This document shows positions 1 to 24,917 of a DNA stretch of 61,938 nt, piece by piece. Where the stretch lies: positions 1 to 61,938 of the IMG/VR virus record IMGVR_UViG_3300025889_000121. The stretch is one strand, 5' to 3'. Each line of letters opens with the position of its first letter. Position 1 is the first letter of the stretch. The DNA comes from a virus. Taxonomy: Duplodnaviria > Caudoviricetes. The translations under genes and the position numbers were made by a program. The notes below the pieces were generated by a model. The model saw only the letters and a list, made by a program, of their open reading frames with translations, ran no database searches and was not told where the DNA came from.

Positions 1-172
1 TTTCTGTAATTAAATCTTTGCGAATACATCTGTAGCCGTTGTATTCTTTTTTACCCCTGTAATTTTTAATGTAGTGTATGTTTGCTTGAGTGCAGTTTTC
101 AAACGTGCCTCCAAATTTTTCATCGGGACCCAAATCACCTACTAAACTGATTATTAACACAAATTCCATCAT
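1..172 (-). CDS. Small hypothetical protein, truncated at window edge (MMEFVLIISLVGDLGPDEKFGGTFENCTQA...)
   Basis: Manual translation; ATG overlaps the stop of the upstream gene (ATGA coupling); hydrophobic N-terminus; not in ORF track. Confidence 0.6.
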   Translation of the reverse strand, partial: MMEFVLIISLVGDLGPDEKFGGTFENCTQANIHYIKNYRGKKEYNGYRCIRKDLITE

Positions 173-342
173 AGTTCTTTCCCACAAGACTCACAAAGAA
201 CAGGCTGACTCTCTGTCTTTTGCTGTTTATACCTACAATGCTTGCACCGTATTCCAAATATTCTATCATATCCGTCGTTAAATGCCTTGTTATCTGTGGG
301 TCTTTGTTTACTTCCTTTTCCTGCTTCATTATATATAGTCAT
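169..342 (-). CDS. 57-aa phage protein with C-terminal Zn ribbon (MTIYNEAGKGSKQRP...CKHC...CESC)
   Basis: Manual translation; coupled at both ends (TAATG, ATGA); two CxxC pairs. Confidence 0.75.
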   Translation of the reverse strand: MTIYNEAGKGSKQRPTDNKAFNDGYDRIFGIRCKHCRYKQQKTESQPVLCESCGKEL

Positions 343-962
343 TACCAAAAAGTCTCCAATTGTCCGTTTCTTCTAATTATGTGCCCTTGAAGAGTTATTC
401 TATATTCATTAGGCACAAACTCTTTTAGCCCTGCTATTCTATGAAGGGTAAGCCCATCATGTAGAATTAGTTCTTTTCTTTTGTATGGTAGATATTCTAT
501 TGTGTTTGCTTTAGTAATATATTCCATGCCACCACCTGACCTAGGCAAGTCTATGGCAACAGTGTAAGCATAAGCATCATCAATACCTGCACCTAAAGTC
601 ACATGTGGAAAGTCCTGGTGCCAATGCCCTGCTATATTTTTTTCTATAAATACTGGATCGCTTGGGAATATGTGGAAGCCTGGAATGGCTAAGTCTTCTG
701 TTAATACTACAGTCTCATCAAATATAAATGTTAAACTATCTAATAGTTTGCTGTATAGACCATAAAAGTTTTGAGCCAATAACTCATTTTGCCATTTAGA
801 TTCATCATAATATTCTTTTGTTTTACCATCTAAATATGCACTGCGGCCTAAAGTATAAAAAGGATACTCGTCAGAACGACTTATCCATAATTTAGTTAGC
901 TTATAAACTTTTTCTAAAATGTCTTTTATGTTTATATCTAAACTAATTTTTTTGTATTTCAC
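342..962 (-). CDS. Putative 2OG-Fe(II) oxygenase
   Basis: HQD...H facial triad (WHQDFPH; LHRI) and RITLQ 2OG-binding Arg. Confidence 0.7.
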   Translation of the reverse strand: MKYKKISLDINIKDILEKVYKLTKLWISRSDEYPFYTLGRSAYLDGKTKEYYDESKWQNELLAQNFYGLYSKLLDSLTFIFDETVVLTEDLAIPGFHIFPSDPVFIEKNIAGHWHQDFPHVTLGAGIDDAYAYTVAIDLPRSGGGMEYITKANTIEYLPYKRKELILHDGLTLHRIAGLKEFVPNEYRITLQGHIIRRNGQLETFW

Positions 963-1131
963 TATATTTTCGTTTCCTCTCTTTTGCCATCTTTAGCAGT
1001 TCTTTTTTTGTTTGATCATCTAAGTATAGCCATTGTTCTAAATCGTCATAAGTTCTATAGCAAGATGTGCACATATTAACCCCATCAATGAGGGCGTATG
1101 AACATACTCCATTGCAAGAACTATCTACCAT
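943..1131 (-). CDS. DUF1289-like Cys-rich protein
   Basis: SSCNGVC...CTSCYRTYDDLEQW pattern; start moved to the ATG at 1131. Confidence 0.7.
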   Translation of the reverse strand: MVDSSCNGVCSYALIDGVNMCTSCYRTYDDLEQWLYLDDQTKKELLKMAKERKRKYSEIQKN

Positions 1132-1159
1132 AATATCATACTCTTTTGTTAACTGTAAA

Positions 1160-1237
1160 GAAAAACGCACCACTAAAGGAAACTAGCAAAATGTGGTGCG
1201 TCTTAATGGCATGAATCGAGGGAGGATGCCCCATGCC
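1160..1237 (-). ncRNA. Candidate two-hairpin RNA/terminator with anti-RBS loops
   Basis: Stems 1208-1213/1232-1237 (extended by G-U pairs on the minus strand) and 1165-1173/1193-1201 followed by a U-tract; loops read CAUCCUCCCUCG and AUUUUGCUAGUUUCCUUUA. Confidence 0.55.
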
Positions 1238-1527
1238 TAGGCTTTTTTATTTTTATACTTTTTACCTACAACGTTTTTCTTTAAACTGCTGTCTTTGTTT
1301 CTTGGAAAAGAACTATTCTTATCAAAGTCTCTAACTCTTAAATTACTCATGGTGTTAGAGCCACCTTTACTTAAAGGTGTTTTGTGATCTACGGCTTTGC
1401 CGTCACCCTTTTTAACTTTGCCTAATCTTTCCATCATTCGTCTAGCTTTATTTCTAGCCACACGTTTTTTAATTTGATCAGGTTTGCTTTTATATTCTCT
1501 ATTTTCTTTTGCGTAATCTCGTGTCAT
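1237..1527 (-). CDS. HNH endonuclease-like protein
   Basis: VDHKTPLSKGGSN...NLRV...N motif. Confidence 0.8.
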   Translation of the reverse strand: MTRDYAKENREYKSKPDQIKKRVARNKARRMMERLGKVKKGDGKAVDHKTPLSKGGSNTMSNLRVRDFDKNSSFPRNKDSSLKKNVVGKKYKNKKA

Positions 1528-2198
1528 TATTTACCCCAATGCGGACATCCTTGAACAGGACAAAACTTTTTACATGCAAAGTTAGGTATAGGGTTAAACA
1601 CTTCCGTATCATAAGCAGTATCCATACGCTGTATTAACCTAGACCACTCTGCAAATATATCACTGATATTGGTATTATTATACTCCTGTTTTATTATATC
1701 TTTACACACTAAAAATATTAATCCTGCTTTTATTTTTTCTACTTCGGGAAAATGTTTAAATATAGCTAAACTAAGTAAACCAAGCTGTTTTGTATCTGCA
1801 TACTCACTGCTCTTTCCTGTTTTATAATCGATTATTGTAGCTAGTTTCTTGTCTTTGTCAAGTATCATTAAGTCTACTGCACCTCTCCACCAGACATTAT
1901 CATCAAAGAACCCACAAGGCTCTAATGTTTTTGTAAGGCCCAGTCTAAGTTCACAATGCTTTTCCCCTGGAATTTCTAATAGCTTGTCTATAATGCTTTG
2001 AAACTCCTTAAATTTTTCTGGCAGCGGAACTCCATCTCTTACGTATTCTTCCGCAGCTTTGTGAACTGCGTTACCATACAAGAAATGTTTTTGGTTAGGA
2101 TCTTGCTTTATGTCCTTAGCAACATACAAGTGATAATACTGCTTAGGGCACTTCTCAAAAGTTGTCGCACTTGAATACGACCATGTGTATTTAGCCAT
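1527..2198 (-). CDS. PD-(D/E)XK exonuclease (Cas4/RecB-like)
   Basis: WSYS...CP, G.AVH, RGAVD, IIDYKTG and C-terminal CxxCP...C. Confidence 0.9.
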   Translation of the reverse strand: MAKYTWSYSSATTFEKCPKQYYHLYVAKDIKQDPNQKHFLYGNAVHKAAEEYVRDGVPLPEKFKEFQSIIDKLLEIPGEKHCELRLGLTKTLEPCGFFDDNVWWRGAVDLMILDKDKKLATIIDYKTGKSSEYADTKQLGLLSLAIFKHFPEVEKIKAGLIFLVCKDIIKQEYNNTNISDIFAEWSRLIQRMDTAYDTEVFNPIPNFACKKFCPVQGCPHWGK

Positions 2199-4030
2199 TA
2201 TTTTGCATCCATATAGTTGTCCCCAACTCCTACTTCACAGTCGAGGGGTAAGTCGGAACACCATACTGGAGCCGTAGTCATGCACTCCTTGACGTATGAT
2301 ACGCAATTATCTACTTCATTTTCTTTGCATAACATTACAAGTTCATCGTGAACAGTCATAACTACAGGATACTTTTTAGATACTGCAACTAATTGCTCCC
2401 CAATTATGTCTCTGGCTAACGACTGAATGCAACGTTGAAAAGTTTTTGCTGGGTGTGTGTATTCAACTATTATGCTGTTGCCCATCTTCTTATCATATAC
2501 CCATGTTGCTCTACCATCTTCTGTTTCTATCTGTCTCAAGTTTGGCAAAGGCAATAGCATTTTATTAGGTTTTAGCATTCCTTGTTTTGAAATGCTTTCT
2601 ATTATTCTTTTGTTTCCCATACTATATTTCTTTCCTTTAGAAACAGCTTCTAACATCGATCCTGCTTCGTCCCAAGAATTAACTAGTAAAGGGTTGGATG
2701 CTCTATAGTTATAAACAATACCTTTAATCTCTTCTATATCTTTATCCACACCACCTTGAGTTAAGATAGCGTGCATTTTGTTAGCACCAACACCATAAAT
2801 ACCTGATAGATTAACAACTTTAAATATATAACGCAAGTCTTTGTCTACACTATCATAATCAATTCCCATAATTTCTGCTGCGGACATTTTGTATAAGTCA
2901 ACACCTTTGTTAATCAAATCTATCTTGTTGTAGTCTTGAGCAAACCAATAAGCAAGTCGTAATTCAATATTGCTCAAGTCTGATGCAACTATCTTGTGTC
3001 CTTCTGGAGCGCATATAGCTCTACGGAGCTCAGACATGCGGGGGAGATTTTGTAGATTGATTCCATCTACACCACTCCATCTATGTGATATAACTGCCCC
3101 AGAATATTTCAATGGAACAGGTAGGGTTCCCCTGTTTGCAATAGATATAAAGTTCTCTGTGCGTGTTTCTTCTATGGTTGATTTGTTTCCTATTCGTGCA
3201 GAGGCGAGGGTTTGTATATATGGATCTTCGTGTTCTAGCAGTGCTTTAAAACCTTCGTCTGTCTTAGCAAAAGCGTAGGTATCTTTCCCTGTGGTAGGGC
3301 TTTTTTTCATAGGGACTTTTACTTTCATAGATTTTAAAAGTTCTGCAAATTGAGGGTTACTCATTAGAACTTTTTTATCTACAGCAACGCTATCTAATAG
3401 TTCTTGTTTTCCTGTTTTTATCTTAGCTAAATGTTTTATAAGCAACGCTTTATTTATTTTTAGTTTAGGTTCAGAAAACATTCTTATAGTTAAGTCAATT
3501 AATTTTAATTCAGTAGATGTGAATCTATTGACTAATTGAAAAAACAAAGCGTAAGTTAATTCAACGTCATTCTTACAGTATTCACCGTATGCTTTTAGTT
3601 CATTATATTTAAAGGTTAATCTATGCTTACCTAACGCATCTAAAACTTCTGTTCCTTTTTCTCCCAAGTTATATAGACGTGCTAAGTTCTTAAGAGATAC
3701 AGACTCTGTTAGTCCGTGAATTATGATTCCCATACTCATGGTATCAAACAGGCCTTTTGGTTTTATGTCGAATATCCAACTTAAGATTGACGCATCAAAG
3801 CGCATGTTGTGCCCAAGCACAAACTTGTTTTCTAAATCATAACTATTGAGGAAGTCTTTTGTTTCTTGGTGAGTGCCTGTAAACCATACAGGTTCTTTAT
3901 CGGCTTGTTTTACAGAGACACCTATAACTTCAAATTGTGGATCTCTTATATATTCTTCTGTAGTGTATTTATTTAAGCCGTAGTTTTTATCGTAGTATGT
4001 TTCAAAGTCGATTGTTATTAAGTTCTTCAT
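2198..4030 (-). CDS. polA: DNA polymerase family A with 3'-5' exonuclease
   Basis: ExoI DFET, ExoII HNMRFD, INLQNLP, motif A DLSNIELR, motif B RYIFKVVNLSGIYG, motif C VHDE. Confidence 0.95.
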   Translation of the reverse strand: MKNLITIDFETYYDKNYGLNKYTTEEYIRDPQFEVIGVSVKQADKEPVWFTGTHQETKDFLNSYDLENKFVLGHNMRFDASILSWIFDIKPKGLFDTMSMGIIIHGLTESVSLKNLARLYNLGEKGTEVLDALGKHRLTFKYNELKAYGEYCKNDVELTYALFFQLVNRFTSTELKLIDLTIRMFSEPKLKINKALLIKHLAKIKTGKQELLDSVAVDKKVLMSNPQFAELLKSMKVKVPMKKSPTTGKDTYAFAKTDEGFKALLEHEDPYIQTLASARIGNKSTIEETRTENFISIANRGTLPVPLKYSGAVISHRWSGVDGINLQNLPRMSELRRAICAPEGHKIVASDLSNIELRLAYWFAQDYNKIDLINKGVDLYKMSAAEIMGIDYDSVDKDLRYIFKVVNLSGIYGVGANKMHAILTQGGVDKDIEEIKGIVYNYRASNPLLVNSWDEAGSMLEAVSKGKKYSMGNKRIIESISKQGMLKPNKMLLPLPNLRQIETEDGRATWVYDKKMGNSIIVEYTHPAKTFQRCIQSLARDIIGEQLVAVSKKYPVVMTVHDELVMLCKENEVDNCVSYVKECMTTAPVWCSDLPLDCEVGVGDNYMDAK

Positions 4031-4193
4031 CTAGTCCTTTCTTTTCTTTTTTACAGTAGCCCTGCAAGTTATACTCTCCCATTTGATTTGTATAACCACA
4101 CCACCACTTACCTGCTTGGTTAAATTTTGCAGAGTCGCCACATTTATGACAAACTGCTTTCCCTACCCCCATATCTATATTCCCTTTCTTCAT
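4002..4193 (-). CDS. Small Cys-rich hypothetical protein
   Basis: ORF overlaps both neighbours; CHKC...WWC. Confidence 0.6.
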   Translation of the reverse strand: MKKGNIDMGVGKAVCHKCGDSAKFNQAGKWWCGYTNQMGEYNLQGYCKKEKKGLDEELNNNRL

Positions 4194-4390
4194 ACCTTGT
4201 TTGCATATAACTCATGATCATTACGACATTCAATGGAGCACCACCTCCTGTTGTCACTTTCTTGTATAGGTTCGCCACACCAAATGCACTTGTTTGTGTC
4301 ATTGGTAGGTATCTTTGTGTCAACAGATTTGAGAGTCTTTTCTAACTGTCTCTCAAGTTCGTCATTAGCAACATCAGCTTCGTCTACCAT
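4190..4390 (-). CDS. DksA/TraR-like C4 zinc-finger protein
   Basis: N-terminal DEADVA (DxxDxA) and CIWCGEPI...WCSIEC. Confidence 0.65.
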   Translation of the reverse strand: MVDEADVANDELERQLEKTLKSVDTKIPTNDTNKCIWCGEPIQESDNRRWCSIECRNDHELYANKV

Positions 4391-4405
4391 CGGTCATACC
4401 CCAAG

Positions 4406-4433
4406 CACGTTTTCACAAAATTGTGAATTTGTG
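4406..4433. repeat. 28-bp palindromic element, copy 1
   Basis: CACGTTTTCACAAAATTGTGAATTTGTG, identical at 9564, 10575 and 12216. Confidence 0.95.
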
Positions 4434-4658
4434 CTACTTATCCCTAACTTTATTTCTTAGTTTTTGTAAGTAATAATCTGCTTTATCTAAATCTTCAACG
4501 CCGTTTTTTAAAGCAAATCTCCAAACGTATTTAATTACGTTAGCTACGCATACAGCAATGATACCAACAAGTCCTGTGGTTGCTGACTCAATAGCATCAA
4601 TACATTCTACCTTACCTTGAGTGTAATGAGAAGGCCTGTTTACGTTATCAGTTTTCAT
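4434..4658 (-). CDS. DUF3310 (SaV-like) protein
   Basis: DNVNRPSHYTQGKVECIDAI...NVIKYVWR...KNGVEDLDKA. Confidence 0.9.
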   Translation of the reverse strand: MKTDNVNRPSHYTQGKVECIDAIESATTGLVGIIAVCVANVIKYVWRFALKNGVEDLDKADYYLQKLRNKVRDK

Positions 4659-4959
4659 TTATACGTTGCTTTCCTGTAACATAAAACTCTAGCATATCAA
4701 CATTTGTTTCATCAATCAATAGGGATATACCACCTTGGATAGATATTTCTCTGAGGTTTTTTTGTTGGAGGGCTGTGGGTTTGTTGCCGTTGGCTTTACA
4801 TTCTATGCCAATAAACTTTCCTTTGTAGCATGCAATAATGTCAGGAACACCTGCACGCATGTAGCCACTGGCGATGGGAAAAAAATAGTATGCACCGAGA
4901 CGTTTTAATTTCTCAACTGCTTTATTTTTAACCCACCGTTCAGTAACTTTTTTTACCAT
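4648..4959 (-). CDS. VRR-NUC nuclease / Holliday junction resolvase
   Basis: GVPDII...FIGIECKA...PTALQ. Confidence 0.9.
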   Translation of the reverse strand: MVKKVTERWVKNKAVEKLKRLGAYYFFPIASGYMRAGVPDIIACYKGKFIGIECKANGNKPTALQQKNLREISIQGGISLLIDETNVDMLEFYVTGKQRINEN

Positions 4960-4964
4960 GTTAT

Positions 4965-5267
4965 CTAGGATAACATAGATTTTTGCTTTGCGATAGATTT
5001 TTGTATATCAATGTATTGATAAAGGTAAGCTATGTTTTTTGCTCTTTTGAGAATATCAAAAGCTTGCATCTTGCCATCAATTATTAATTTCAAATCTAGA
5101 TATTCTCTGTCTTTGTCATTCTCGATAACAAGATAAAAATCATTCTCACGCATACCAACACCTTTTACAATAACTCTCGGCTCAGCAAGTTTCAACAATG
5201 CAATCTTCTTTCGGTGCTCTTTTGGAATGTCTGCATTGTTTTCATCACTAGCGCGATATACTTTCAT
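4965..5267 (-). CDS. Hypothetical protein
   Basis: 100-aa ORF coupled to the upstream gene. Confidence 0.7.
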   Translation of the reverse strand: MKVYRASDENNADIPKEHRKKIALLKLAEPRVIVKGVGMRENDFYLVIENDKDREYLDLKLIIDGKMQAFDILKRAKNIAYLYQYIDIQKSIAKQKSMLS

Positions 5268-6109
5268 ATAAGCCCCATAATTTCGTTAACTTTGTTAGCT
5301 ACATGTTTACGTAAAAAATCATTCTCGCGTAAGTCTTGAGCATCTACACCAACAATAGCTTTTTCAAGTTCTTGACGAGCCGATTCTAATTTAGGATCTT
5401 TAGTAATGTTTAAGCTAGATAACAAACCTGTTAACTCTAGTGCATTAGTAACAAGGGTATCTCTAAATATTTTCTTATCTTCACCTTGCAATCTCTCAAG
5501 CATGTGTGCAAGTGTATCGTGCAATCTTGTCCATGCTGAATCCATAGCAAACTTAATCCTATCGTTGTATGCTTTTTCATACTGTTCTTTCAAGTCTTTT
5601 TTCATTTCGGTATTTATATTATCGAAATGATTAACCTCAGGAACAGGTAGAAACGTATACCCAATTTTGTATTTACTGCGTATTTCATCTGCTGCAGGGT
5701 ATTCACTTCTATCAAACAACGCACCTAGTTTGTATGCCATAGCATCTACAATCTTTGGATAGTTATTTATAAACTCATTGACGCGTTCTTGAAACAACTC
5801 TTGGTGTTCGTCCATTTGTTGTTTGTAATCAAAAAACTGTGTCATGGGCAACAAACGAATACCACCACTAGAAGACCATGGAAGTGTTTGTCTCATGTGG
5901 TAGTCCCTAATTTCACTAGCATGTTGCTGTATTTTTGCCAGTGCTTCAGACCCTGCCAGTAGGTGTTTGTTGTAGTTACCAGCTGAAGTTGTTGCACCTT
6001 TACTTACACTAACTTCTTTGGATACACCTTTATCTAGTTTTCTTGCAGTCCATAACGATATGTTAAGTTCAACAAGAACATTACTTGATGCAATATTTAT
6101 ATCACTCAT
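5264..6109 (-). CDS. Conserved phage early protein (DUF3150-like)
   Basis: ISLWTARKLD...TLPW...G.RLLP...LGALFDRSEYP. Confidence 0.7.
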   Translation of the reverse strand: MSDINIASSNVLVELNISLWTARKLDKGVSKEVSVSKGATTSAGNYNKHLLAGSEALAKIQQHASEIRDYHMRQTLPWSSSGGIRLLPMTQFFDYKQQMDEHQELFQERVNEFINNYPKIVDAMAYKLGALFDRSEYPAADEIRSKYKIGYTFLPVPEVNHFDNINTEMKKDLKEQYEKAYNDRIKFAMDSAWTRLHDTLAHMLERLQGEDKKIFRDTLVTNALELTGLLSSLNITKDPKLESARQELEKAIVGVDAQDLRENDFLRKHVANKVNEIMGLI

Positions 6110-6558
6110 GCTGTTACCCCCTCTCCTTTAAATATGTTTTCAAAATAATCAAAATCAAACTGCGTGTTTTCTACCTCTATATATCTTTGATTCATATCAA
6201 ATTCTACACAAATATCATCGATATTAGATATGTTAATGACTATTTCACCATAGCCACCATCGTTGTTATACCAATCAACACCTGTTTTATCTAGCATTTG
6301 GTAGCCTAAATCCTCAAGGGCGGCTTGCAAAGTTGTATCTTTAGGTTTGCCTGCGTCGTGATAATTTTCACTAGTCCACAAAATTGTAGTGATAGGTGTT
6401 GTTACATGCTTATCACTAGCGTCCATTAATGAAACAGAATCAATAGAGCCACTATCCCCTGCCCCTTCAAAAGTTATTACTATTTTTGCTACGTTGTGAA
6501 GCCGTAGCTGAGCAAACAACGAATCTATTTCTTTGTTTGTTACGATTGCTTTTTCCAT
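6106..6558 (-). CDS. Hypothetical protein (DUF6878-like)
   Basis: FEGAGDSG and DWYNNDGGYG motifs. Confidence 0.65.
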   Translation of the reverse strand: MEKAIVTNKEIDSLFAQLRLHNVAKIVITFEGAGDSGSIDSVSLMDASDKHVTTPITTILWTSENYHDAGKPKDTTLQAALEDLGYQMLDKTGVDWYNNDGGYGEIVINISNIDDICVEFDMNQRYIEVENTQFDFDYFENIFKGEGVTA

Positions 6559-7208
6559 TATTTTTCCTCCCTATAACTAATTTTAAACTCGTTAATCTCT
6601 CTATTAATCATGCGATTAATAATTTGTAGGCCTTCGTTTTCAGGATGCATAGCCGTATAGCCCTTCTTAACAATTTTACTTAATCGTTTTTCCATATCTT
6701 CACGAACAGGATCAGCTTCAGGCAATTGATATCCATGAGCACCCACATGGGGTCTCACTCCTGTTTCAATTTCTAAAGTTACAGGCATATCAGGTGGCAA
6801 GTTTTTTATGTTATTAAGTTCTGCCAAATTTTCCTCTTGACGCGTTGCATCTATATAATACTTTTCCTTATCTAAAAGGGCTCGTAAACTTAGATACTGT
6901 TCTACTTCTGTCCATATAGGATGGCTTGCTTTATAATTTTTAAATGTATGAGTCATATAGTAGTCATCTCTAATATGTGGGTGAAACTCTGCTGCATATT
7001 TCTCCCATAACTCTCTAGATAAAAATTTAGTCATAACCTCACTATAACCCGTTGCACCTGTCTCATAATACTTTTTGATGTTCTTTAATTGAGCATCAGT
7101 TAAAGTTGTTACATCAATTACTCCTTCAAGTTTTTTCATGTGTTGCAAATGTTTTTCAGGAACGTGAACTCCCATTTTAGTCTCCTTCATATTTAATAGT
7201 TTTACCAT
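6558..7208 (-). CDS. Hypothetical protein (true start probably ~7175)
   Basis: Long ORF in operon; GGAG RBS precedes the MGVH start. Confidence 0.7.
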   Translation of the reverse strand: MVKLLNMKETKMGVHVPEKHLQHMKKLEGVIDVTTLTDAQLKNIKKYYETGATGYSEVMTKFLSRELWEKYAAEFHPHIRDDYYMTHTFKNYKASHPIWTEVEQYLSLRALLDKEKYYIDATRQEENLAELNNIKNLPPDMPVTLEIETGVRPHVGAHGYQLPEADPVREDMEKRLSKIVKKGYTAMHPENEGLQIINRMINREINEFKISYREEK

Positions 7209-8325
7209 GTGGTGAAGTCAAGTCTGATGTCACCACCCATAATGTAGGGCAAGTCCAAACTCCACCCCAATCTTGTTCTACATAACCATCGGTGAAAACA
7301 ATGGTGGTCTCAGGTTTAAGTTTTTCACTACGTATATACTCATTGAGACAACCTACATGTGTTCCACCACCTCCACGTGGTTTAGTAGTTGCTTTCAGTC
7401 GTTGATACTCTCCCTCTTTGTATTGTTCCACACCTGCAACTTCGTGGTCCCAATACACAAGCACAACGCTTTTTGGTGTTACGTCTTCACATATAGATAC
7501 AATCTCAGACAAGAATAGATTTATTTCTTCTTGTCCAATAGAACCTGATGTGTCAACACCAATTACAATGTCACCTACGGATTCACCAATCATGGAAGGC
7601 ATGTATATATCTTGCGATACATATCTTCTATGTGGTTTGCGCCACGATGACTTGTCTTTTGATTTGCATATAGAGTTTACAAACTGCCTTAACTCTCTGC
7701 GCCAATCTACTTTCGGTTTTAAGAAGTCTGTCACCCCTCTTATTTGATTGCCTGCCATCTTGCCACGCAGGATTTCACCTTGTCGCAAGGCTTGATCGAT
7801 TTGCTCTTTGACTTTTTTAACTTCGTTATCATCAAGCGCCTCTGCTTCGTCAAACCCATGCTCATCAAGAACCACAGTTACACCATCGCTCTGTGGATTT
7901 TCTTTCTGCAATATGTCAAAGATTTGTTTGGTAGTCATGTTGTCAAACCTTTGGTCATACAAACCTGATTTAGGCATAGCTGCAATGTTTTCATCAGGGT
8001 CGGCATTTTTAATAGTAGCGTTAACTACATAATCAGCCGCCATGTTTGTAAGCATAGGGTTCTTCTTAAACAAATCTTTCCATATATGCATGTGTTGAAA
8101 TGCTTTGTGTATTGCCTCATGCAAGACAATAAAGTTTAGTTCTTTCGTTGGCAGTGTTTGTATCCAATCAGGATTGTAAGTTACATCTCTACCATTAGTT
8201 CCTGCTGTGGGAACTTTGTCAGAGAAATTAACATCACCGATAGACAACACACCAGAGAACAAACAAAACTCTTTGCTACGCATGATAGCAATGTGAGACT
8301 TTGTGACTCTATCTTGTGGTGTCAT
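7177..8325 (-). CDS. Metallopeptidase-like + VWA domain protein (DUF2201-like)
   Basis: HEAIH (HExxH), MIDAS DTSGS, GGGGT, FTDG. Confidence 0.9.
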   Translation of the reverse strand: MTPQDRVTKSHIAIMRSKEFCLFSGVLSIGDVNFSDKVPTAGTNGRDVTYNPDWIQTLPTKELNFIVLHEAIHKAFQHMHIWKDLFKKNPMLTNMAADYVVNATIKNADPDENIAAMPKSGLYDQRFDNMTTKQIFDILQKENPQSDGVTVVLDEHGFDEAEALDDNEVKKVKEQIDQALRQGEILRGKMAGNQIRGVTDFLKPKVDWRRELRQFVNSICKSKDKSSWRKPHRRYVSQDIYMPSMIGESVGDIVIGVDTSGSIGQEEINLFLSEIVSICEDVTPKSVVLVYWDHEVAGVEQYKEGEYQRLKATTKPRGGGGTHVGCLNEYIRSEKLKPETTIVFTDGYVEQDWGGVWTCPTLWVVTSDLTSPHGKTIKYEGD

Positions 8326-8483
8326 TCTGCCTCCTCGACTTCAAAGTCTGAACCTGCTACGTTTTTGTGCTGTTGATATTGTTCTAGTGCAAACTCACAA
8401 GCTTGTAGCTTACTTGTAAATGTTTTAACAACTTTACCAACACCTGTTTTTTGATACTCAACCACTAAGTATTCTTTTTGCAT
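8322..8483 (-). CDS. 53-aa hypothetical protein (MQKEYLVVEYQ...)
   Basis: Manual translation; AGGAG RBS; ATGA coupling to the VWA gene. Confidence 0.7.
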   Translation of the reverse strand: MQKEYLVVEYQKTGVGKVVKTFTSKLQACEFALEQYQQHKNVAGSDFEVEEAE

Positions 8484-8492
8484 GCTAATCTC

Positions 8493-9539
8493 CTAGAAGA
8501 ATTGTTTATTACGCATTGCCCAATCTACAAACTTCTTATTGGTCGCCGCGATAGGTTGTTTACTACCATTCATGATGTTGACTGCAAATAGTGCTTGCAT
8601 CTCCATAGGCAATCTTTCCATGTATGTTAGCCAAGGTTCAAAGTTCTCTTTCGTAATACCCATCAACTCACGCATGACAAGAATAACTTTAGCCGAAGGG
8701 TCGGAAGGAATGTTAGCTTTATCAGGTTGTTTGTATATTGATTCACGTGTAGGCAGTTCGTCAGCCAATGAGAAGAACGCAGCCATGTCTCTAGCAGCTG
8801 ATTCACCTATGGTGCCTGCAAGTGCAGCCATGGTTGTATCAACACCTAGTTCCTTACGTGCTTTGACAATATGTGAGGCCTTGTGCAAAGAACGTGGGGT
8901 AACAAATGCTTCTTGCTCTCTAGTTGGATCAAATATATACATGTTCTCTTTCTGAGATTTATCAAGATAACTAGCAAGACAATGTGGAAATTGTTTTACC
9001 CATGCAATAACTTCTGCTGACAAGTCATTACTGATTGCCCAATTAATCCATTCATCATCACTAGGATTGCGTAGATACACAGATGTGATTCTGTTCTTAG
9101 CATGTGCTTTGAGTGAATCGCCAACACCATCTGTCAACATGTTACCTGTTGAATAGACTATTGAGTCAGGGTGAAACTTAACTGAACCTAGTCTTCTCTC
9201 GAGCATGACTGGTAATAGCATGTTCTTGACTGGCTCACTTGCTTTAGTAATCTCGTCAAGCATGATGATTACAGGCTTACCATGATGTAGTTGAAATCGT
9301 TCGTTAGGGTAGAACGCTGTTGACTTTGTTTCATGATTCATTGCAGGCATAGCCAAGTCACCAAGGTCTAAATCTGCGCAATCAATGTATACAGGTATGT
9401 GGTCAGGATGTTTCTCTGCAAGAGTTTGCAGTATAGATGATTTACCAATTCCAGGCTGACCTTGCACGTGGATAGTGGTAGTAGTGCCAACGCTACTAAT
9501 TAGATTAGTTACGTCTGTTAGATTTACGGTTAGTTGCAT
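8493..9539 (-). CDS. AAA+ ATPase (MoxR/dynein-related type)
   Basis: Walker A GQPGIGKS, Walker B IMLDE, STGN sensor, TPRS. Confidence 0.9.
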   Translation of the reverse strand: MQLTVNLTDVTNLISSVGTTTTIHVQGQPGIGKSSILQTLAEKHPDHIPVYIDCADLDLGDLAMPAMNHETKSTAFYPNERFQLHHGKPVIIMLDEITKASEPVKNMLLPVMLERRLGSVKFHPDSIVYSTGNMLTDGVGDSLKAHAKNRITSVYLRNPSDDEWINWAISNDLSAEVIAWVKQFPHCLASYLDKSQKENMYIFDPTREQEAFVTPRSLHKASHIVKARKELGVDTTMAALAGTIGESAARDMAAFFSLADELPTRESIYKQPDKANIPSDPSAKVILVMRELMGITKENFEPWLTYMERLPMEMQALFAVNIMNGSKQPIAATNKKFVDWAMRNKQFF

Positions 9540-9563
9540 TGTAGTTTCCTTTCATAATAAATG

Positions 9564-9591
9564 CACGTTTTCACAAAATTGTGAATTTGTG
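9564..9591. repeat. 28-bp palindromic element, copy 2
   Basis: Identical to copy 1. Confidence 0.95.
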
Positions 9592-9593
9592 CG

Positions 9594-10547
9594 TTAAACA
9601 ACTGGTTCAAGAACTGATAGCTGTCGACCTTTAAAGTCTCTATCTATCGCCTGTTGAAGTAAGTTCAAACTAGGTAATTTCCATACGTGACGAAACCAAT
9701 CATGCTGAGCATGTTTAGTTATAAAATGAAGCATAGTTTTATAATGACTTTCGTCTGTAGTTTGATCTTTTACATCAAACTTATATTTATCATATGTTTC
9801 ATCAGTAATTGTTGCATTTAGTAACGGATATGCAGACTCAACGTAATCATGTAAATCTTTTAGTTTTGTCTTACGCAAAGAATTAAGCAGTTTTCTGTTA
9901 ACTTTGTATTTTGTTGGTTGCACAAATTGCTCAACGTTTGTTGGTTTGCCTTCGTAATCAAACGCATAAGGAATATTGTCAGCAACATCAAACCAAGAGT
10001 GACCGTTAATCAAAGATGAGCCATCTATGTTTGACATGCGCGCTGTAAAGTTAAGTGGTTGCTCACAATCTTTTTCATTAAAACCTTCAGGAACATATTC
10101 ACGCCAAGGAATTGAATAAAATATTTTCTTGGTGAATCTTGTATAATAGTTCTCACCTCCCCTACTTCCTACTATGTGATATCTACTTAGCTTCATAGTA
10201 AAATGGTCTGGGTAATAAAATAAGTCGTTGCTTTTATCAAAAGATTTTTTAAGTTCGTTTTCAAAATCCCTTTCTTCGCCGACAGGATGTCGAACATCAT
10301 ATGGCGAGTTACGACTAAGCGAGTAATATGGGTATTCAGCATCGAAATATTTTGTAAGATATACACTGCCGTAATGTTTTGTTATCATATTTCTGCTTGA
10401 TTGAAACTGCATTATAATGTCTCTCTCTTCTTGTGGTTCGTGTCGAGTAAAGCTAATAGGGTCCATAAATTGCCATAGTGGCTCTAGTTTTTCATACTGC
10501 AAAATCTTTGGTTCAGTATTCCAGTTAATACTTAAATCAAATGTCAT
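9594..10547 (-). CDS. Hypothetical protein
   Basis: 317-aa ORF with AAAGGAAACT RBS. Confidence 0.8.
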   Translation of the reverse strand: MTFDLSINWNTEPKILQYEKLEPLWQFMDPISFTRHEPQEERDIIMQFQSSRNMITKHYGSVYLTKYFDAEYPYYSLSRNSPYDVRHPVGEERDFENELKKSFDKSNDLFYYPDHFTMKLSRYHIVGSRGGENYYTRFTKKIFYSIPWREYVPEGFNEKDCEQPLNFTARMSNIDGSSLINGHSWFDVADNIPYAFDYEGKPTNVEQFVQPTKYKVNRKLLNSLRKTKLKDLHDYVESAYPLLNATITDETYDKYKFDVKDQTTDESHYKTMLHFITKHAQHDWFRHVWKLPSLNLLQQAIDRDFKGRQLSVLEPVV

Positions 10548-10574
10548 GATAGTTTCCTTTCATATTTTGTTAAG

Positions 10575-10602
10575 CACGTTTTCACAAAATTGTGAATTTG
10601 TG
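10575..10602. repeat. 28-bp palindromic element, copy 3
   Basis: Identical to copy 1. Confidence 0.95.
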
Positions 10603-10648
10603 CAGGGTTAGATTGCGTTTGTATGGGATAGACTACCCCCATTCTTAT

Positions 10649-10677
10649 AGTATACACTATTTAGTTAACAATGTCAA
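10649..10677 (-). promoter_or_regulatory. Sigma70-type early promoter
   Basis: TTGACA-17 bp-TATACT. Confidence 0.85.
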
Positions 10678-10678
10678 G

Positions 10679-10882
10679 TCATTTAATTAGCCCTCCTTTA
10701 TTATTAATGCCTTTCAAATCATCAGGATTGGTGAACAACATGTAGTTAGATTTGTGCATTGGTGCTACACAATGTTTTACTTTGTTAGCTTCGTTCTCAC
10801 CACAAGATAAACAGGTCTTGTATCCTAACTTGTGTCTACCTGTAGGCACGTGTTCCCCACAATTTATACAAACGTAGTTCAT
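10679..10882 (-). CDS. Zn-finger protein (DksA-C4-like finger)
   Basis: CINCGE...R..LGY.TCLSCGE...APMHKSNY. Confidence 0.75.
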   Translation of the reverse strand: MNYVCINCGEHVPTGRHKLGYKTCLSCGENEANKVKHCVAPMHKSNYMLFTNPDDLKGINNKGGLIK

Positions 10883-11121
10883 GCGACCTCCTCCTTATAA
10901 AAATTTATAGGTTGTAGTTCACAGTAACATTTTGTGTTTCTAACAAGCCATGTAGAGCATTCACCAAAGTCACTTTCGTCTTGTTCTTCATAATGAGAAC
11001 AAGTTTGTTGGCTCTCATAATCATGTCCATGTGGGCATGGGTGTAACTCGGTTATTTCCCCTGAACATACCTTGCTAAACACATTTGCATGGTCTTCGTT
11101 TTTTAAATCTAAAAACATCAT
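10879..11121 (-). CDS. Cys/His-rich hypothetical protein
   Basis: Coupled ORF in early operon. Confidence 0.65.
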   Translation of the reverse strand: MMFLDLKNEDHANVFSKVCSGEITELHPCPHGHDYESQQTCSHYEEQDESDFGECSTWLVRNTKCYCELQPINFYKEEVA

Positions 11122-11360
11122 TCGTCTTCCTCCTTTTCTATCTCCTCTATTTCTATCAATGTTTCATAATCATTACAACTTAAATTTAATTCCTCATATT
11201 TGTCTATCTCTCTTGTTACTGCAAGTGGCGTATACTTAAATTCAATGCCACCTGATTCGATAGCTTTTTCAACATCTTCTTCGCTTTCAGCCTCAACAAT
11301 ATATTCAGAGGTTGCCCACAAAGTATATTCTTGCTCTACCAAAACTCTATATTTATTCAT
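11118..11360 (-). CDS. Acidic hypothetical protein
   Basis: VEAESEED motif typical of phage early proteins; coupled. Confidence 0.75.
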   Translation of the reverse strand: MNKYRVLVEQEYTLWATSEYIVEAESEEDVEKAIESGGIEFKYTPLAVTREIDKYEELNLSCNDYETLIEIEEIEKEEDE

Positions 11361-11596
11361 TTCATTTCCTCCCCAAAGGTTGTGTCAATACATGCTTGAC
11401 CTGTTTTTAAATAGATATTACTGCCATACTCAGTGGCTTGAAAAGCTATACCTTTCTGACATACATAATCAGGTAGTAGTGGGTTAATCAGTGGTCCTAA
11501 TTCTTGCCACAAATATGTCACTCCCCACCCAATTAATATGCCCATGACTACACCTAAGAACATATCGCCATAACTTACTCCGTCTATTACTTTCAT
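11357..11596 (-). CDS. Membrane-anchored hypothetical protein
   Basis: One TM segment plus a Cys pair. Confidence 0.7.
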   Translation of the reverse strand: MKVIDGVSYGDMFLGVVMGILIGWGVTYLWQELGPLINPLLPDYVCQKGIAFQATEYGSNIYLKTGQACIDTTFGEEMK

Positions 11597-11730
11597 TAGT
11601 GTTTCTCCTCAGTTACTTCGTGAACGATACTGACTATCCCATTATCGTCTAATGCTTCAACGATTTGGTCAAACCAATCTTTAGCTGTGTCGATACTATC
11701 CTCGACTATGACTAGAAATTTTCTATCCAT
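11596..11730 (-). CDS. 44-aa hypothetical protein (MDRKFLVIVEDS...)
   Basis: Manual translation; GGAGG RBS; TAATG coupling. Confidence 0.65.
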   Translation of the reverse strand: MDRKFLVIVEDSIDTAKDWFDQIVEALDDNGIVSIVHEVTEEKH

Positions 11731-11763
11731 TTCAATTTTCCTCCGTTTTAACATATAACTCTC

Positions 11764-11931
11764 TTATAGTGTAGTTACCCATACAAGCATAGAAGCTGTT
11801 GTAAAACCAAGACCAAAACCTACGGCAAAAGATAGAATTATCTTGTCCCTAGCCTCGCGTGCATACTGCACCTTCCATAGCCAATTTTGTTTGGCACGTT
11901 TTGCTGATATATCTTCGTCAAATGTATACAT
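11764..11931 (-). CDS. Small membrane protein (MYTFDEDIS...)
   Basis: AAGGAG RBS before the ATG at 11931; C-terminal TM. Confidence 0.65.
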   Translation of the reverse strand: MYTFDEDISAKRAKQNWLWKVQYAREARDKIILSFAVGFGLGFTTASMLVWVTTL

Positions 11932-11943
11932 AGTTACTCTCCT

Positions 11944-11969
11944 TAAAAGAGGAGGCTTTCGCCCCCTGT
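11944..11969 (-). terminator. Hairpin GGGGGC-GAAA-GCCUCC with short U-tract
   Basis: GNRA-capped stem in an intergenic gap; weak terminator or processing site. Confidence 0.45.
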
Positions 11970-11971
11970 GA

Positions 11972-12196
11972 TTAAAAATCATTATCAAATTTAACTGATG
12001 CCTTAATTGTGTCTTCGATTGCCCAGTATAGTTTGTTACCATATTCGGTATCTCTTGTACCACCATATAGGCTATCAGGGTCGGGTTCGATACATCTAGA
12101 TTCAATACCTAACTCTGTTACAACACTCACAAAAACTTTGTGTGCGATATCGCAAATTTCTTCTAACTCTAACTTACATTGTTTTTCTACTTGCAT
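11972..12196 (-). CDS. Hypothetical protein (MQVEKQ...)
   Basis: AAGGAG RBS before the ATG at 12196. Confidence 0.7.
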   Translation of the reverse strand: MQVEKQCKLELEEICDIAHKVFVSVVTELGIESRCIEPDPDSLYGGTRDTEYGNKLYWAIEDTIKASVKFDNDF

Positions 12197-12215
12197 AATA
12201 GTCTCCTTGTATATA

Positions 12216-12243
12216 CACGTTTTCACAAAATTGTGAATTTGTG
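12216..12243. repeat. 28-bp palindromic element, copy 4
   Basis: Identical to copy 1. Confidence 0.95.
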
Positions 12244-12245
12244 TG

Positions 12246-12810: not shown

Positions 12811-12813
12811 AAG

Positions 12814-13573: not shown

Positions 13574-13591
13574 ATCGTTCTCCTCTCTGTC

Positions 13592-13619
13592 CACAAATTC
13601 ACAAAATTGTGAAAACGTG
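13592..13619. repeat. 28-bp palindromic element, copy 5 (arms inverted)
   Basis: CACAAATTCACAAAATTGTGAAAACGTG. Confidence 0.9.
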
Positions 13620-15622: not shown

Positions 15623-15657
15623 TTTTTAGTTTCCTTATTAAAGTTTTTTAAATTTTC

Positions 15658-24861: not shown

Positions 24862-24881
24862 TTTGTAAGCGCACTCCTCCT

Positions 24882-24917
24882 GAAAAACCCAGCTCCCTCT
24901 CGGCTGGGTTTTTCTTT
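24882..24917 (+). terminator. Rho-independent terminator after MCP
   Basis: GAAAAACCCAGC/GCTGGGTTTTTC inverted repeat. Confidence 0.85.

What the first reader, a model, noticed from the sequence alone, without database searches (positions are those of the whole stretch)
1160..1237. Candidate RNA with loops antisense to the phage's own early-gene ribosome-binding sites
Seen: at the 3' end of the polA-nuclease-HNH transcript (minus strand) are two hairpins. The terminator-like one has an unusually large 19-nt loop; its antisense equivalent is TAAAGGAAACTAGCAAAATG, an RBS-plus-AUG look-alike. AAAGGAAACTA is exactly the RBS of the AAA ATPase (start 9539) and of gene 9594-10547, and gene 15011-15622 has AAGGAAACTAAAAAATG. 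The other loop (CAUCCUCCCUCG) is anti-SD and complements AGGGAGGA upstream of the 6558 start. G-U pairs favour the minus-strand fold. Inference: a 3'-derived trans-acting RNA that shuts off translation of early mRNAs (or of host mRNAs) as infection proceeds.
Basis: partly seen in the sequence, partly recalled or inferred. Interest (0 to 1): 0.78.

Follow-up and report, generated by a model that had tools for sequence, protein, structure and literature searches.

The report
Phage operon-end RNA with CU-rich loops
The two hairpins are real and are a cut-down copy of a structured RNA that many related uncultured phages carry at the end of their DNA-replication operon, but its proposed role of silencing genes by pairing with their ribosome-binding sites is only weakly supported.

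Summary
On the minus strand, hairpin H2 (1237-1208) and hairpin H1 (1204-1162, 19-nt loop, U-tract) follow the stop codon of the pol-exonuclease-miniHNH operon. The quoted RBS matches exist.

H1's 11-nt match to two RBSs (10 nt to a third) is unusual (P about 0.001-0.02). However, the three RBSs share one motif. H2's 8-nt match is not significant. Duplex energies do not beat composition-matched shuffled loops.

Relatives carry a structured RNA of about 130 nt at this position, in 59 of 80 loci. It consists of an H-type pseudoknot, a long hairpin and a terminator whose loop CCUCUCUCG is invariant. It has 17 covarying pairs and no Rfam match.

A 90%-related contig (L154) bridges the homology. 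H2's stem is the pseudoknot helix and H1 is the family terminator, with two compensatory stem changes. Only the core UUCCUUU of H1's loop is conserved, not the 11-mer or the AUG look-alike.

CU-rich loop motifs appear to be selected across the family. They resemble the SD-binding CU/UCCC loops of LhrC, RNAIII and the icaR 3'UTR. Evidence for co-variation between loop and RBS is suggestive but confounded by phylogeny. No expression data were obtained.

Verdict: a real new variant of a known kind, with its function unproven.

The parts
1237..1527 (-). 96-aa mini-HNH gene (p96), the last gene of the pol-exonuclease-HNH unit. Its stop codon UAG is at 1239-1237.
   Evidence: ORF list. PHROG 4590 at E 3e-20, plus weak HNH families. 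Pfam HNH at E 0.0019, below the curated cut-off. A homologue follows the exonuclease gene in 79 of 80 related loci.
1208..1237 (-). Hairpin H2, with stem GGCAUG/CAUGCC. It is homologous to helix S2 of the family's H-type pseudoknot. The loop carries GGGCAUCCUCCCUCGAUU.
   Evidence: Fold. DNA alignment with L154, where GGCATG...CATGCC frames the pseudoknot's P1-3' strand and A-rich linker.
1217..1226 (-). Pyrimidine tract UCCUCCCUCG in the H2 loop (like motif A; contains CCUCC and UCCC).
   Evidence: It is partly sequestered by the upstream GGG. Its 8-nt complement AGGGAGGA lies at 6565-6572, which is not significant.
1162..1204 (-). Hairpin H1, the intrinsic terminator of the operon and the homologue of the family's terminator hairpin.
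   Evidence: Fold at -16.6 kcal/mol. With filters off, the CM aligns AGACGCACCAC..GUGGUGCGU to the family terminator consensus, scoring only 8.0 bits. The stem covaries with L154 (CAC/GUG to UAA/UUA).
1174..1192 (-). The 19-nt H1 loop AUUUUGCUAGUUUCCUUUA. Its core UUCCUUU (motif B) is shared with L154.
   Evidence: In a roughly 97%-identical strain, position 1187 changes C>G on the + strand, which adds a second UUCCU to the loop.
1175..1185 (-). The 11 nt of the H1 loop that are complementary to AAAGGAAACUA.
1153..1165 (-). U-rich tail (UUUUUCUUU) of the terminator.
1130..1159 (-). Promoter-like site TTTACA-18-TATTAT (10 of 12, TG-extended) directly after the terminator. The start codon of the DUF1289 gene p62 is at 1131.
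   Evidence: L154 and L093 have TTGCAT-N16/17-TATTAT at the same place.
9542..9552 (-). RBS AAAGGAAACUA of the AAA-ATPase gene (start 9539), the candidate pairing partner of the H1 loop.
10550..10560 (-). Identical RBS of the 317-aa gene (start 10547).
15627..15636 (-). RBS AAGGAAACUA of the 203-aa gene (start 15622).
6565..6572 (-). RBS AGGGAGGA of the 150-aa gene (start 6558), complementary to the H2 tract.
   Evidence: Within chance.
24874..24914 (+). A second CU-rich 3'UTR, after the major head gene. It has single-stranded CUCCUCCU, then a 13-bp terminator with loop CCCUCUC (AGCUCCCUCUCGGCU, close to the family motif).
   Evidence: -23.8 kcal/mol, z -5.95.

Best explanation
Positions 1153-1240 on the minus strand encode the 3'-terminal RNA module of the pol-exonuclease-miniHNH operon. 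This module is a reduced member of a structured RNA family that related uncultured phages carry at exactly this position. That family is not in Rfam.

H1 is the family's intrinsic terminator and ends the transcription unit. H2 is what remains of the family's H-type pseudoknot: helix S2 is kept, while the P1 strand and the A-rich linker have been replaced by a CU-rich segment.

Across the family the scaffolds vary, but exposed pyrimidine motifs are retained in loops. These are motif A (CCUCUCUCG-like) and motif B (UUCCUUU(C)-like).

The most likely use of these loops is inferred, not shown, and I put it at about one chance in three. It is anti-Shine-Dalgarno-type pairing with purine-rich RBSs of a few early genes. 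That would include the AAA-ATPase and its neighbour in this phage. The pairing RNA could be the 3'UTR of the long mRNA or a processed fragment, as with LhrC, RNAIII or the icaR 3'UTR.

Shown: the structure, homology, covariation and loop conservation, all by computation on sequence. Inferred: termination, RNA stability and any pairing.
For: Anatomy and fold.

Family. Downstream of the p96 homologue, covariance model R1 hits 59 of 80 exonuclease-derived loci. It hits 13 of 80 p96-derived metagenome loci. It hits once in each of 5 of 5 whole relatives.

Structure. 96.6% of cells are paired and 17 of 38 pairs show double changes. 0 of 500 shuffles reach this, and slid controls reach at most 50%. 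Many G.U pairs fix the strand.

Loop conservation. The core CCUCUCUCG is invariant or at least 90% conserved in 31 sequences. It persists on unrelated stems in other subgroups.

Homology of the window. L154 (p96 90% identical) aligns through GGCATG..CATGCC and ACGCAC..GTGCGTTTTTCTTT, with two compensatory changes in H1. L154 itself scores 27.9 bits, E 1e-4, with R1. With filters off, R1 places H1 on the family terminator.

No known family: 0 Rfam hits at gathering threshold in the window and in 8 relatives, and nothing meaningful at E<=10.

Evidence for pairing. H1's 11-mer gives P 0.001-0.02. Of 19 loci with a motif-A loop, 16 have GAGAGAG in the ATPase RBS. None of 5 loci without a CU loop has it. 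The window has motif B in the terminator loop and GAAAGGAAAC in the ATPase RBS. A 64-aa gene upstream of pol has AAGGAGAGAG in 19 of 19 loci that hold both the gene and the element. L154's loop keeps a complement to UGAAAGGAA.

Mechanistic precedent: LhrC passages, the icaR abstract, and c4 RNA passages in a review.
Against: R1 finds nothing in the window with default filters at E<=10. With filters off it scores only 8.0 bits on the minus strand, against 7.2 bits for a plus-strand alignment. The homology therefore rests on the single bridging contig L154 plus position.

Motif A in the window sits in H2, not in the terminator loop, and is partly base-paired. L154 has no motif A at all.

Loop-TIR duplex energies do not beat shuffled loops. 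Seven of nine loops tested have no unusual perfect match.

Ranking orthologue groups by energy does not single out the ATPase: its ranks are 4/94, 9/91, 9/92 and 36/81.

The SD consensus is AGGAGA in all four genomes.

The loop-RBS associations are low-complexity (CU)n against (GA)n matches within clades, so they are not independent events.

Three loci with motif A lack GAGAGAG, and one subgroup (L029 type) shows only weak complementarity.

Nineteen of 79 relatives with p96 lack the element, so it is dispensable.

There is no transcript evidence.

Gene starts come from my own crude caller.
Confidence: 0.55

Rival explanations
1. These are ordinary operon-end terminator hairpins. The RBS complementarity is a by-product of pyrimidine-rich loops meeting purine-rich RBSs. 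The family-wide CU motifs are kept for a reason other than RBS pairing, such as binding a protein (an S1-, Rho- or RNase-type pyrimidine binder, or a phage factor), setting terminator efficiency, or protecting the 3' end.
For: Energies are no better than shuffled loops. H2's match is within chance. Cross-genome energies show no specificity for H1. The 11-mer is not conserved in L154. Motif A does not contain the complement of the consensus SD AGGAGA. The invariance of an 11-nt loop across phages with 65-75% protein identity fits one fixed partner rather than drifting RBSs.
Against: H1's perfect 11-mer is rare by chance (P 0.001-0.02). G003's loop has a 10-nt perfect match to the RBS of the 64-aa gene (P 0.02). 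GAGAGAG RBSs are present or absent together with motif A. CU motifs recur on different scaffolds, which is how pairing seeds behave. No candidate binding protein was identified. The idea that Rho or S1 prefer pyrimidine tracts is recalled, not tested.
Confidence: 0.3
2. A discrete, stable RNA derived from the 3' end (about 80 nt, H2+H1) acts in trans as infection proceeds. It represses translation of early phage mRNAs (ATPase, 10547, 15622, 6558) or host mRNAs.
For: The H1 loop is predicted accessible. It has 11/11/10-nt matches to three early RBSs. The major head mRNA, an abundant late transcript, also carries CU-rich 3' elements, which would fit a dose that rises late. LhrC and c4 are precedents.
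Against: No evidence was found for a separate transcript or for processing. No convincing promoter lies upstream of H2: the scan lists none there, and by my own reading of the sequence the best candidate matches about 7 of 12. The RNA run gave no coverage. The statistics are as given above. The host is unknown, so host targets cannot be tested. The H2-6558 pairing is within chance and the tract is partly sequestered.
Confidence: 0.12
3. This is a cis-acting attenuator or riboswitch-like leader. The pseudoknot domain sits at or over the p96 stop codon. It senses a ligand, a protein or the terminating ribosome, and sets read-through of the terminator into the next gene. That gene is an SNF2 helicase with a UUG start in most relatives, and p62/p206 here.
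For: In relatives the SD of the next gene follows the U-tract within about 10 nt, leaving no room for a promoter. The compact H-type pseudoknot with an A-rich linker has the topology of small aptamers (topology; the comparison with preQ1-I is recalled). The p96 stop codon lies inside the pseudoknot strand in L153 and L154.
Against: The window has lost P1 and the long hairpin, and has a promoter-like site after H1, so this cannot be the function here. An invariant terminator loop is not expected of an expression platform. I saw no consistent antiterminator pairing across subgroups when reading the sequences. There is no Rfam aptamer match.
Confidence: 0.06
4. The plus strand is the functional one. 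On this reading it is either a small antisense RNA with GGA-containing loops (AAAGGAAAC, GAGGGAGGAUG) that titrates a CsrA-type protein, or a 7-codon mini-ORF behind the RBS look-alike.
For: The plus strand folds almost as well (-27.2, z -2.16). There is a 9 of 12 promoter-like site at 1112-1139 (+). A T-run follows H2 on the plus strand.
Against: The relatives' structure needs G.U pairs, which would become C.A mismatches on the other strand. The relatives' complementary loops (CGAGAGAGG) lack GGA. The T-run is the Lys-rich coding end of p96. L154 has no ATG in the equivalent loop. All R1 hits are on the gene strand.
Confidence: 0.03

Closest known systems
LhrC sRNAs of Listeria monocytogenes, and the UCCC-motif sRNAs RNAIII, RsaE, SprD and FsrA named in that paper (PMC4132741; abstract and passages read)
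   Same: Both have redundant CU-rich motifs displayed in a hairpin loop and in the terminator loop of a small two-hairpin RNA. In LhrC those motifs pair with the AG-rich Shine-Dalgarno region of targets. The window's H2 tract and the head-gene terminator loop contain UCCC/CUCCC.
   Different: LhrC is a stand-alone, chromosomally encoded, stress-induced sRNA with proven targets. Here the element is the 3' end of a phage operon mRNA, with no transcript or target data. The relatives' main motif (CCUCUCUC) lacks UCCC, and the host is unknown.
icaR mRNA 3'UTR of Staphylococcus aureus (PMC3868564; abstract read)
   Same: In icaR, a C-rich motif in a bacterial 3'UTR pairs with an SD region, blocks initiation and creates an RNase III substrate. 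This is a route by which a 3'UTR can act without being a separate sRNA.
   Different: icaR pairs with its own monocistronic 5'UTR. Here the candidate RBSs lie 5-14 kb away, partly in other transcription units, so the action would be intermolecular or very long-range.
c4 antisense RNA of phages P1 and P7 (review PMC12197685; passages read)
   Same: c4 is a phage-encoded RNA whose loop sequences are complementary to the RBS region of a phage gene and block its translation.
   Different: c4 controls the antirepressor in a temperate phage's immunity region. That it is cut from the same transcript upstream of its target is recalled, not read. There is no sequence or structural similarity, and no Rfam hit here.
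Rho-independent (intrinsic) terminators
   Same: H1 has a G+C-rich stem directly followed by a U-tract at the end of a gene block, with a promoter-like site after it.
   Different: The loop is 19 nt, where typical loops are 3-8 nt (the range used by the scan, which therefore missed it). The loop content is conserved in relatives, which plain terminators do not require.
Small H-type pseudoknot RNAs with A-rich linkers, such as preQ1-I-type aptamers and frameshift pseudoknots (recalled, not tested)
   Same: The relatives' 5' domain has the same topology: a 5-bp P1, a 6-bp S2 formed by the P1 loop, and a 6-nt A-rich linker.
   Different: There is no Rfam match. S2 is longer. The window retains only S2.

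Membership tests
Intrinsic (Rho-independent) terminator | A stable G+C-rich hairpin immediately followed by a U-tract on the transcribed strand | tested here: met
   H1 has a 9-12 bp stem at -16.6 kcal/mol, then UUUUUCUUU.
Intrinsic (Rho-independent) terminator | A short loop (about 3-8 nt) | tested here: not met
   The loop is 19 nt. The consensus scan with loops of 3-8 nt did not list it.
Intrinsic (Rho-independent) terminator | An RNA 3' end at the U-tract in vivo | not testable with these tools
   Only contig-level runs were available, and the RNA run laid 0 contigs.
New phage RNA family (model R1: pseudoknot, long hairpin, CU-loop terminator, downstream of the mini-HNH gene) | Position directly after (or overlapping) the stop codon of the p96 homologue, on the gene strand | tested here: met
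   H2 starts with the G of the stop codon. The relatives are placed the same way.
New phage RNA family (model R1: pseudoknot, long hairpin, CU-loop terminator, downstream of the mini-HNH gene) | Pseudoknot helix S2 (GGCRYG/CRYGYC) | tested here: met
   The window's GGCAUG/CAUGCC aligns with S2 of L154. S2 covaries in the family.
New phage RNA family (model R1: pseudoknot, long hairpin, CU-loop terminator, downstream of the mini-HNH gene) | Helix P1 and the A-rich linker that complete the pseudoknot | tested here: not met
   In the window the segment is replaced by GGGCAUCCUCCCUCGAUU.
New phage RNA family (model R1: pseudoknot, long hairpin, CU-loop terminator, downstream of the mini-HNH gene) | Long central hairpin (13 pairs, 10 of them covarying) | tested here: not met
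   It is absent in the window and in L154. It is also absent in L072.
New phage RNA family (model R1: pseudoknot, long hairpin, CU-loop terminator, downstream of the mini-HNH gene) | Terminator hairpin with stem consensus AGACGCGUCAC/GUGGCGCGUCU | tested here: met
   The window has AGACGCACCAC/GUGGUGCGUUU, which the CM places on the terminator.
New phage RNA family (model R1: pseudoknot, long hairpin, CU-loop terminator, downstream of the mini-HNH gene) | Motif A (CCUCUCUCG) in the terminator loop | tested here: not met
   The window's terminator loop carries motif B (UUUCCUUUA). A tract like motif A sits in H2 instead.
New phage RNA family (model R1: pseudoknot, long hairpin, CU-loop terminator, downstream of the mini-HNH gene) | A significant covariance-model score | tested here: not met
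   There is no hit at E<=10 with default filters. With filters off on 401 nt the score is 8.0 bits. The bridging relative L154 scores 27.9 bits. The window is therefore filed as a reduced derivative, not a full member.
CU-rich/UCCC-motif SD-targeting riboregulators (LhrC, RNAIII, RsaE type) | A pyrimidine-rich motif exposed in hairpin loops, including the terminator loop | tested here: met
   The H1 loop is 0.83-1.0 unpaired. The H2 tract is partly exposed.
CU-rich/UCCC-motif SD-targeting riboregulators (LhrC, RNAIII, RsaE type) | Complementarity to target RBSs beyond what composition gives | tested here: inconclusive
   By perfect match, H1 gives P 0.001-0.02. Energies are not better than shuffles. 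H2 is not significant.
CU-rich/UCCC-motif SD-targeting riboregulators (LhrC, RNAIII, RsaE type) | Co-variation of loop and target across relatives | tested here: inconclusive
   At clade level there is an association: 16 of 19 against 0 of 5, plus the window's switch to motif B with GAAAGGAAAC. The events are not phylogenetically independent.
CU-rich/UCCC-motif SD-targeting riboregulators (LhrC, RNAIII, RsaE type) | A stable RNA species and repression of the target | not testable with these tools
   No raw RNA reads were available, and the host is unknown.
Any Rfam 15 family | A score at or above the gathering threshold | tested here: not met
   There were 0 hits in the window and in 8 relatives. 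At E<=10 only chance-level matches appeared.
CsrB/RsmZ-type protein sponge (plus-strand reading) | Several GGA motifs in hairpin loops, conserved in relatives | tested here: not met
   There are two GGA loops in the window only. The relatives' complementary loops lack GGA, and their structure is strand-specific for the other strand.

The most novel reading that the evidence does not exclude
A large clade of uncultured aquatic phages encodes a modular riboregulator at the 3' end of its replication operon. Interchangeable CU-rich loop 'seeds' pair with the atypical Shine-Dalgarno sequences of a small early regulon (the AAA-ATPase, its neighbour, and a 64-aa gene). Motif A would pair with (GA)n RBSs and motif B with GAAAGGAAAC RBSs. 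Loop and RBS would switch together between lineages, and the window would represent one such switch. This would be a conserved, phage-borne analogue of LhrC/RNAIII-type regulation, built onto a pseudoknotted scaffold.
Probability: 0.25. Interest if true: 0.8.

Novelty: new variant of a known kind. Interest (0 to 1): 0.55.

Why it matters
Few regulatory RNAs are known from lytic or uncultured phages, and most known phage sRNAs come from prophages of model hosts. This work gives a concrete RNA family supported by covariation: 59 of 80 related loci, one copy per genome, and no Rfam entry. Its loop motif is invariant, and the candidate partners can be tested. If the loops do pair with RBSs, the family would show phage gene timing set by a 3'UTR, and would show how such seeds move between scaffolds. 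If they do not pair, the invariant CU loop points to an unknown RNA-binding partner. For this window specifically, the result replaces a striking but isolated sequence coincidence with a homology-based annotation.

Tried and rejected
1. No close cultured relative was found. Megablast of window 1-6000 against the phage collection gave nothing. The best tblastn hit for the polymerase was 31.6% (Rhizobium phage RHph_TM3_14A). The host was not identified. There are no tRNAs. The pseudoknot pattern gave 0 hits in 185,579 species' genomes.

2. Rfam gave nothing.

3. The full covariance model R1 finds nothing in the window with default filters.

4. I looked for relatives with the window's own H2+H1 layout. 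The p62 query found none by exact words. The p62 alignment query found 60 loci. Among the 43 distinct upstream sequences printed for them, only L093 (which stands for 2 loci) and L109 have the element upstream, both of the L002 type. The metagenome scan with p96 gave only L154 (usable) and L153 (cut at the stop codon). Co-variation of the H1 loop with its RBSs therefore could not be tested.

5. Public runs. RNA run X1 (share 0.05) laid 0 contigs. Runs X2-X4, from one study, hold a strain that is about 97% identical (29 differences in 901 nt). In 1132-1236 it differs only at 1142, 1153 and 1187. That rate matches the average, so there is no conservation signal. Because these are contigs, they give no ends or expression levels.

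6. I considered an antiterminator in which the pseudoknot 3' strand pairs with the terminator 5' arm. It fits the L077 and L040 types but not the L050, L005 or L002 types, judged by eye on the sequences. I dropped it.

7. The opposite strand of motif A resembles a PyrR-type binding loop. This is a recalled resemblance. There is no Rfam hit and the structure is on the wrong strand, so I dropped it.

8. I considered frameshifting or read-through at the pseudoknot next to the stop codon. The downstream sequence has indels and no coding pattern, so I dropped it.

9. I tested whether the SD consensus co-varies with the loop type. It is AGGAGA in all four genomes, so I rejected this.

10. MAFFT alignment A2 of the terminator hairpins alone aligned the loops but not the stems across subgroups. 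I built no second model.

Full report
**Where the finding sits.** The window is a complete IMG/VR virus record of 61,938 bp. Genes in 1-16,000 run on the minus strand. Upstream of the finding lie a family-A DNA polymerase (2198-4030), an exonuclease (1527-2198) and a 96-aa protein with an HNH-like motif (p96, 1237-1527). Downstream lie a 62-aa DUF1289 protein (start 1131) and a 206-aa protein.

**Checking the observation.** On the minus strand, the p96 stop codon UAG (1239-1237) runs into hairpin H2 (1237-1208, stem GGCAUG/CAUGCC). Three nucleotides later comes H1 (1204-1162), with a 9-12 bp stem, a 19-nt loop and the tail UUUUUCUUU.
- The 101-nt stretch folds at -27.8 kcal/mol with z = -2.68; 3 of 200 shuffles fold as well.
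- The plus strand folds almost as well (-27.2).
- All the quoted motif matches are present.

**Are the RBS matches more than chance?** I called genes crudely (94 TIRs).
- H1's loop has a perfect complement of 11 nt or more in 2 TIRs and of 10 nt or more in 3 TIRs.
- Against 5000 shuffled loops this gives P about 0.001. Against 5000 genomic 21-mers it gives P about 0.002-0.003.
- The longest match in any TIR gives P = 0.019.
- The three TIRs share one motif. Two of them (9539, 10547) also share an upstream 14-mer, TTGTGAAAACGTGC, which occurs five times in the early region against 0.5 expected. The signal is therefore closer to one event.
- H2's 8-mer is within chance (P 0.19-0.38).
- RNAduplex energies of either loop against all TIRs do not beat shuffled loops of the same composition (H1 top-3 p 0.05, H2 p 0.25).

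**Relatives.** No cultured relative exists. IMG/VR holds hundreds of relatives with 64-80% exonuclease identity, of which 80 were fetched. p96 follows the exonuclease gene in 79 of these 80.

Directly after p96, most carry a conserved element of about 130-160 nt. It has three parts:
- an H-type pseudoknot, with P1 CCGCA/UGCGG, S2 GGCGUG/CACGUC and an A-rich linker;
- a long hairpin;
- a terminator hairpin whose loop reads (C)ACUACCUCUCUCGGUG, followed by UAUUUUUA.

The structure is well supported on 31 distinct sequences. 96.6% of cells are paired and 17 of 38 pairs show double changes. 0 of 500 shuffles reach this, and slid controls reach at most 50%. Abundant G.U pairs fix the strand.

Covariance model R1 gave these hits:
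- 59 of 80 exonuclease-derived loci, always on the gene strand;
- 13 of 80 p96-derived metagenome loci;
- exactly one site in each of five whole relatives.

A strict pseudoknot pattern occurs in 31 viral contigs and in none of the species genomes. Rfam 15 has no match.

The loop core is invariant or at least 90% conserved. It reappears as CUCUCUCC-type tracts on quite different stems in other subgroups. That is the signature of a loop under selection.

**How the window relates to this family.** R1 does not detect the window. A metagenome contig with a 90%-identical p96 (L154) bridges the gap.
- L154 has an intact pseudoknot (P1 ACCCA/UGGGU, S2 GGCAUG/CAUGCC), with the p96 stop codon inside it.
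- The pseudoknot is followed directly by a terminator, AACGCACUAA[UCUUUAAAUUCCUUUCAG]UUAGUGCGUU.
- L154 scores 27.9 bits with R1.
- The window aligns with L154 through GGCATG...CATGCC and through the terminator arms. So H2's stem is helix S2, and H1 is the family terminator.
- Two base pairs of H1 changed in a compensatory way (CAC/GUG against UAA/UUA).
- With filters off, R1 likewise lays H1 on the terminator consensus. The score is only 8.0 bits, against 7.2 bits for a plus-strand alignment of the same stretch.

The window has lost P1 and the long hairpin. A CU-rich segment (UCCUCCCUCG) replaces the P1 strand and linker.

Between the window and L154, the terminator loop keeps only UUCCUUU. 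The 11-mer and the 'AUG' of the RBS look-alike are not conserved.

L002 (80% exonuclease identity) has both kinds of motif in one 21-nt terminator loop.

A strain about 97% identical to the window differs in the element only at one loop position, and that change creates a second UUCCU.

**A second CU-rich 3'UTR.** After the major head gene, the window has unpaired CUCCUCCU and then a 13-bp terminator with loop CCCUCUC. The relatives' head-gene terminators have ordinary loops.

**Do loops and RBSs change together?** The evidence is mixed.

For:
- Among 24 loci that hold both the ATPase start and the region after p96, 16 of the 19 with motif A have GAGAGAG in the ATPase RBS. The 3 exceptions have GAAAGC, together with UCGCUUUC at the hairpin apex. 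None of the 5 loci without a CU loop has either.
- The window, with motif B in its terminator loop, has GAAAGGAAAC. So does the closest ATPase relative, L233.
- A 64-aa gene upstream of pol has AAGGAGAGAG in 19 of 19 loci that hold both the gene and the element. L012, which lacks the CU loop, does not.
- The L005 type gives an 11-of-12 match to the ATPase RBS, by my own reading of the sequences.

Against:
- These are (CU)n against (GA)n matches within clades, so they are not independent events.
- The L029 type matches poorly.
- By energy, the ATPase ranks 4/94, 9/91, 9/92 and 36/81. Other early genes rank higher.
- H1 pairs as well or better with two of the three other phages' ATPase leaders.
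- The SD consensus is AGGAGA everywhere.
- Seven of nine loops tested show no unusual perfect match.

**Interpretation.**
- What is well supported is that this is the terminator and 3'-end module of the replication operon. It is a reduced derivative of a new, conserved phage RNA family.
- What is probable is that the CU-rich loops are functional.
- What is only plausible, at about one chance in three, is that they pair with purine-rich RBSs. LhrC does this: redundant CU-rich sites in loop A, in a single strand and in the terminator loop bind the lapB SD (passages read). The icaR 3'UTR does too (abstract read). So does P1/P7 c4 RNA (review passages read).
- The main rival is a fixed protein partner, or a role in termination or stability.
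- For the relatives, an attenuator role remains possible, because the next gene's SD abuts the U-tract there. In the window a promoter-like site follows H1.

**Limits.**
- The host is unknown.
- Gene starts come from my own script.
- The homology link rests on a single bridging contig.
- There are no transcript data.
- Supplements of the cited papers were not consulted. This matters little here, because only their mechanisms are cited.

Noticed in passing
window 24874-24914 (+): The 3'UTR of the major head gene (23950-24861) has single-stranded CUCCUCCU, then a strong terminator (13 bp, z -5.95) whose loop CCCUCUC, closed by CU/GG, nearly copies the relatives' conserved loop. The head-gene terminators of two relatives have ordinary loops.
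   Followed up: partly
window 4405-4418, 9563-9576, 10574-10587 (-); also 12215-12228 (-) and 13607-13620 (+): The 14-mer TTGTGAAAACGTGC occurs three times exactly and twice with one mismatch, against 0.5 expected. The copies lie about 15-40 nt upstream of early gene starts (4390, 9539, 10547). It is probably a phage-specific promoter or operator. The two 11-mer RBSs belong to this cassette.
   Followed up: partly
L052/L059 and 20 other related loci, about 3.4-4.9 kb upstream of the RNA element (e.g. G003 18929-19123): A highly conserved 64-aa ORF of unknown function (about 86-100% identical) lies just upstream of the polymerase gene. It has an unusual (GA)n Shine-Dalgarno sequence, AAGGAGAGAG. 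The window has no such gene.
   Followed up: partly
L050 5132-6688 and equivalents: In most relatives the gene after the RNA element is a 519-aa SNF2-family helicase. It starts with UUG about 7 nt after AGGAGA, and that SD follows the terminator's U-tract within about 10 nt. The helicase can therefore only be made by terminator read-through.
   Followed up: no
L153 and L154 (p96 end); also L155-L157 and L164: The stop codon of the mini-HNH gene is the UGA inside the conserved pseudoknot strand (GGCRUGAG). A terminating ribosome must therefore unfold the pseudoknot.
   Followed up: no
L005, L008, L015, L023 and others: The distance between the polymerase and exonuclease genes varies from 0 to about 1.7 kb among relatives. 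Extra ORFs are inserted there, and some polymerase matches are split. This hints at mobile insertions such as homing endonucleases.
   Followed up: no
window 800-1700, runs X2-X4: A strain about 97% identical to the window (29 substitutions in 901 nt, no indels) is present in three runs of one study at about 10x contig depth.
   Followed up: partly
window 1191-1214 (+): On the plus strand, the RBS look-alike in the H1 loop is followed by a 7-codon ORF (ATG...TGA). It is not conserved in L154, where no ATG is present.
   Followed up: yes
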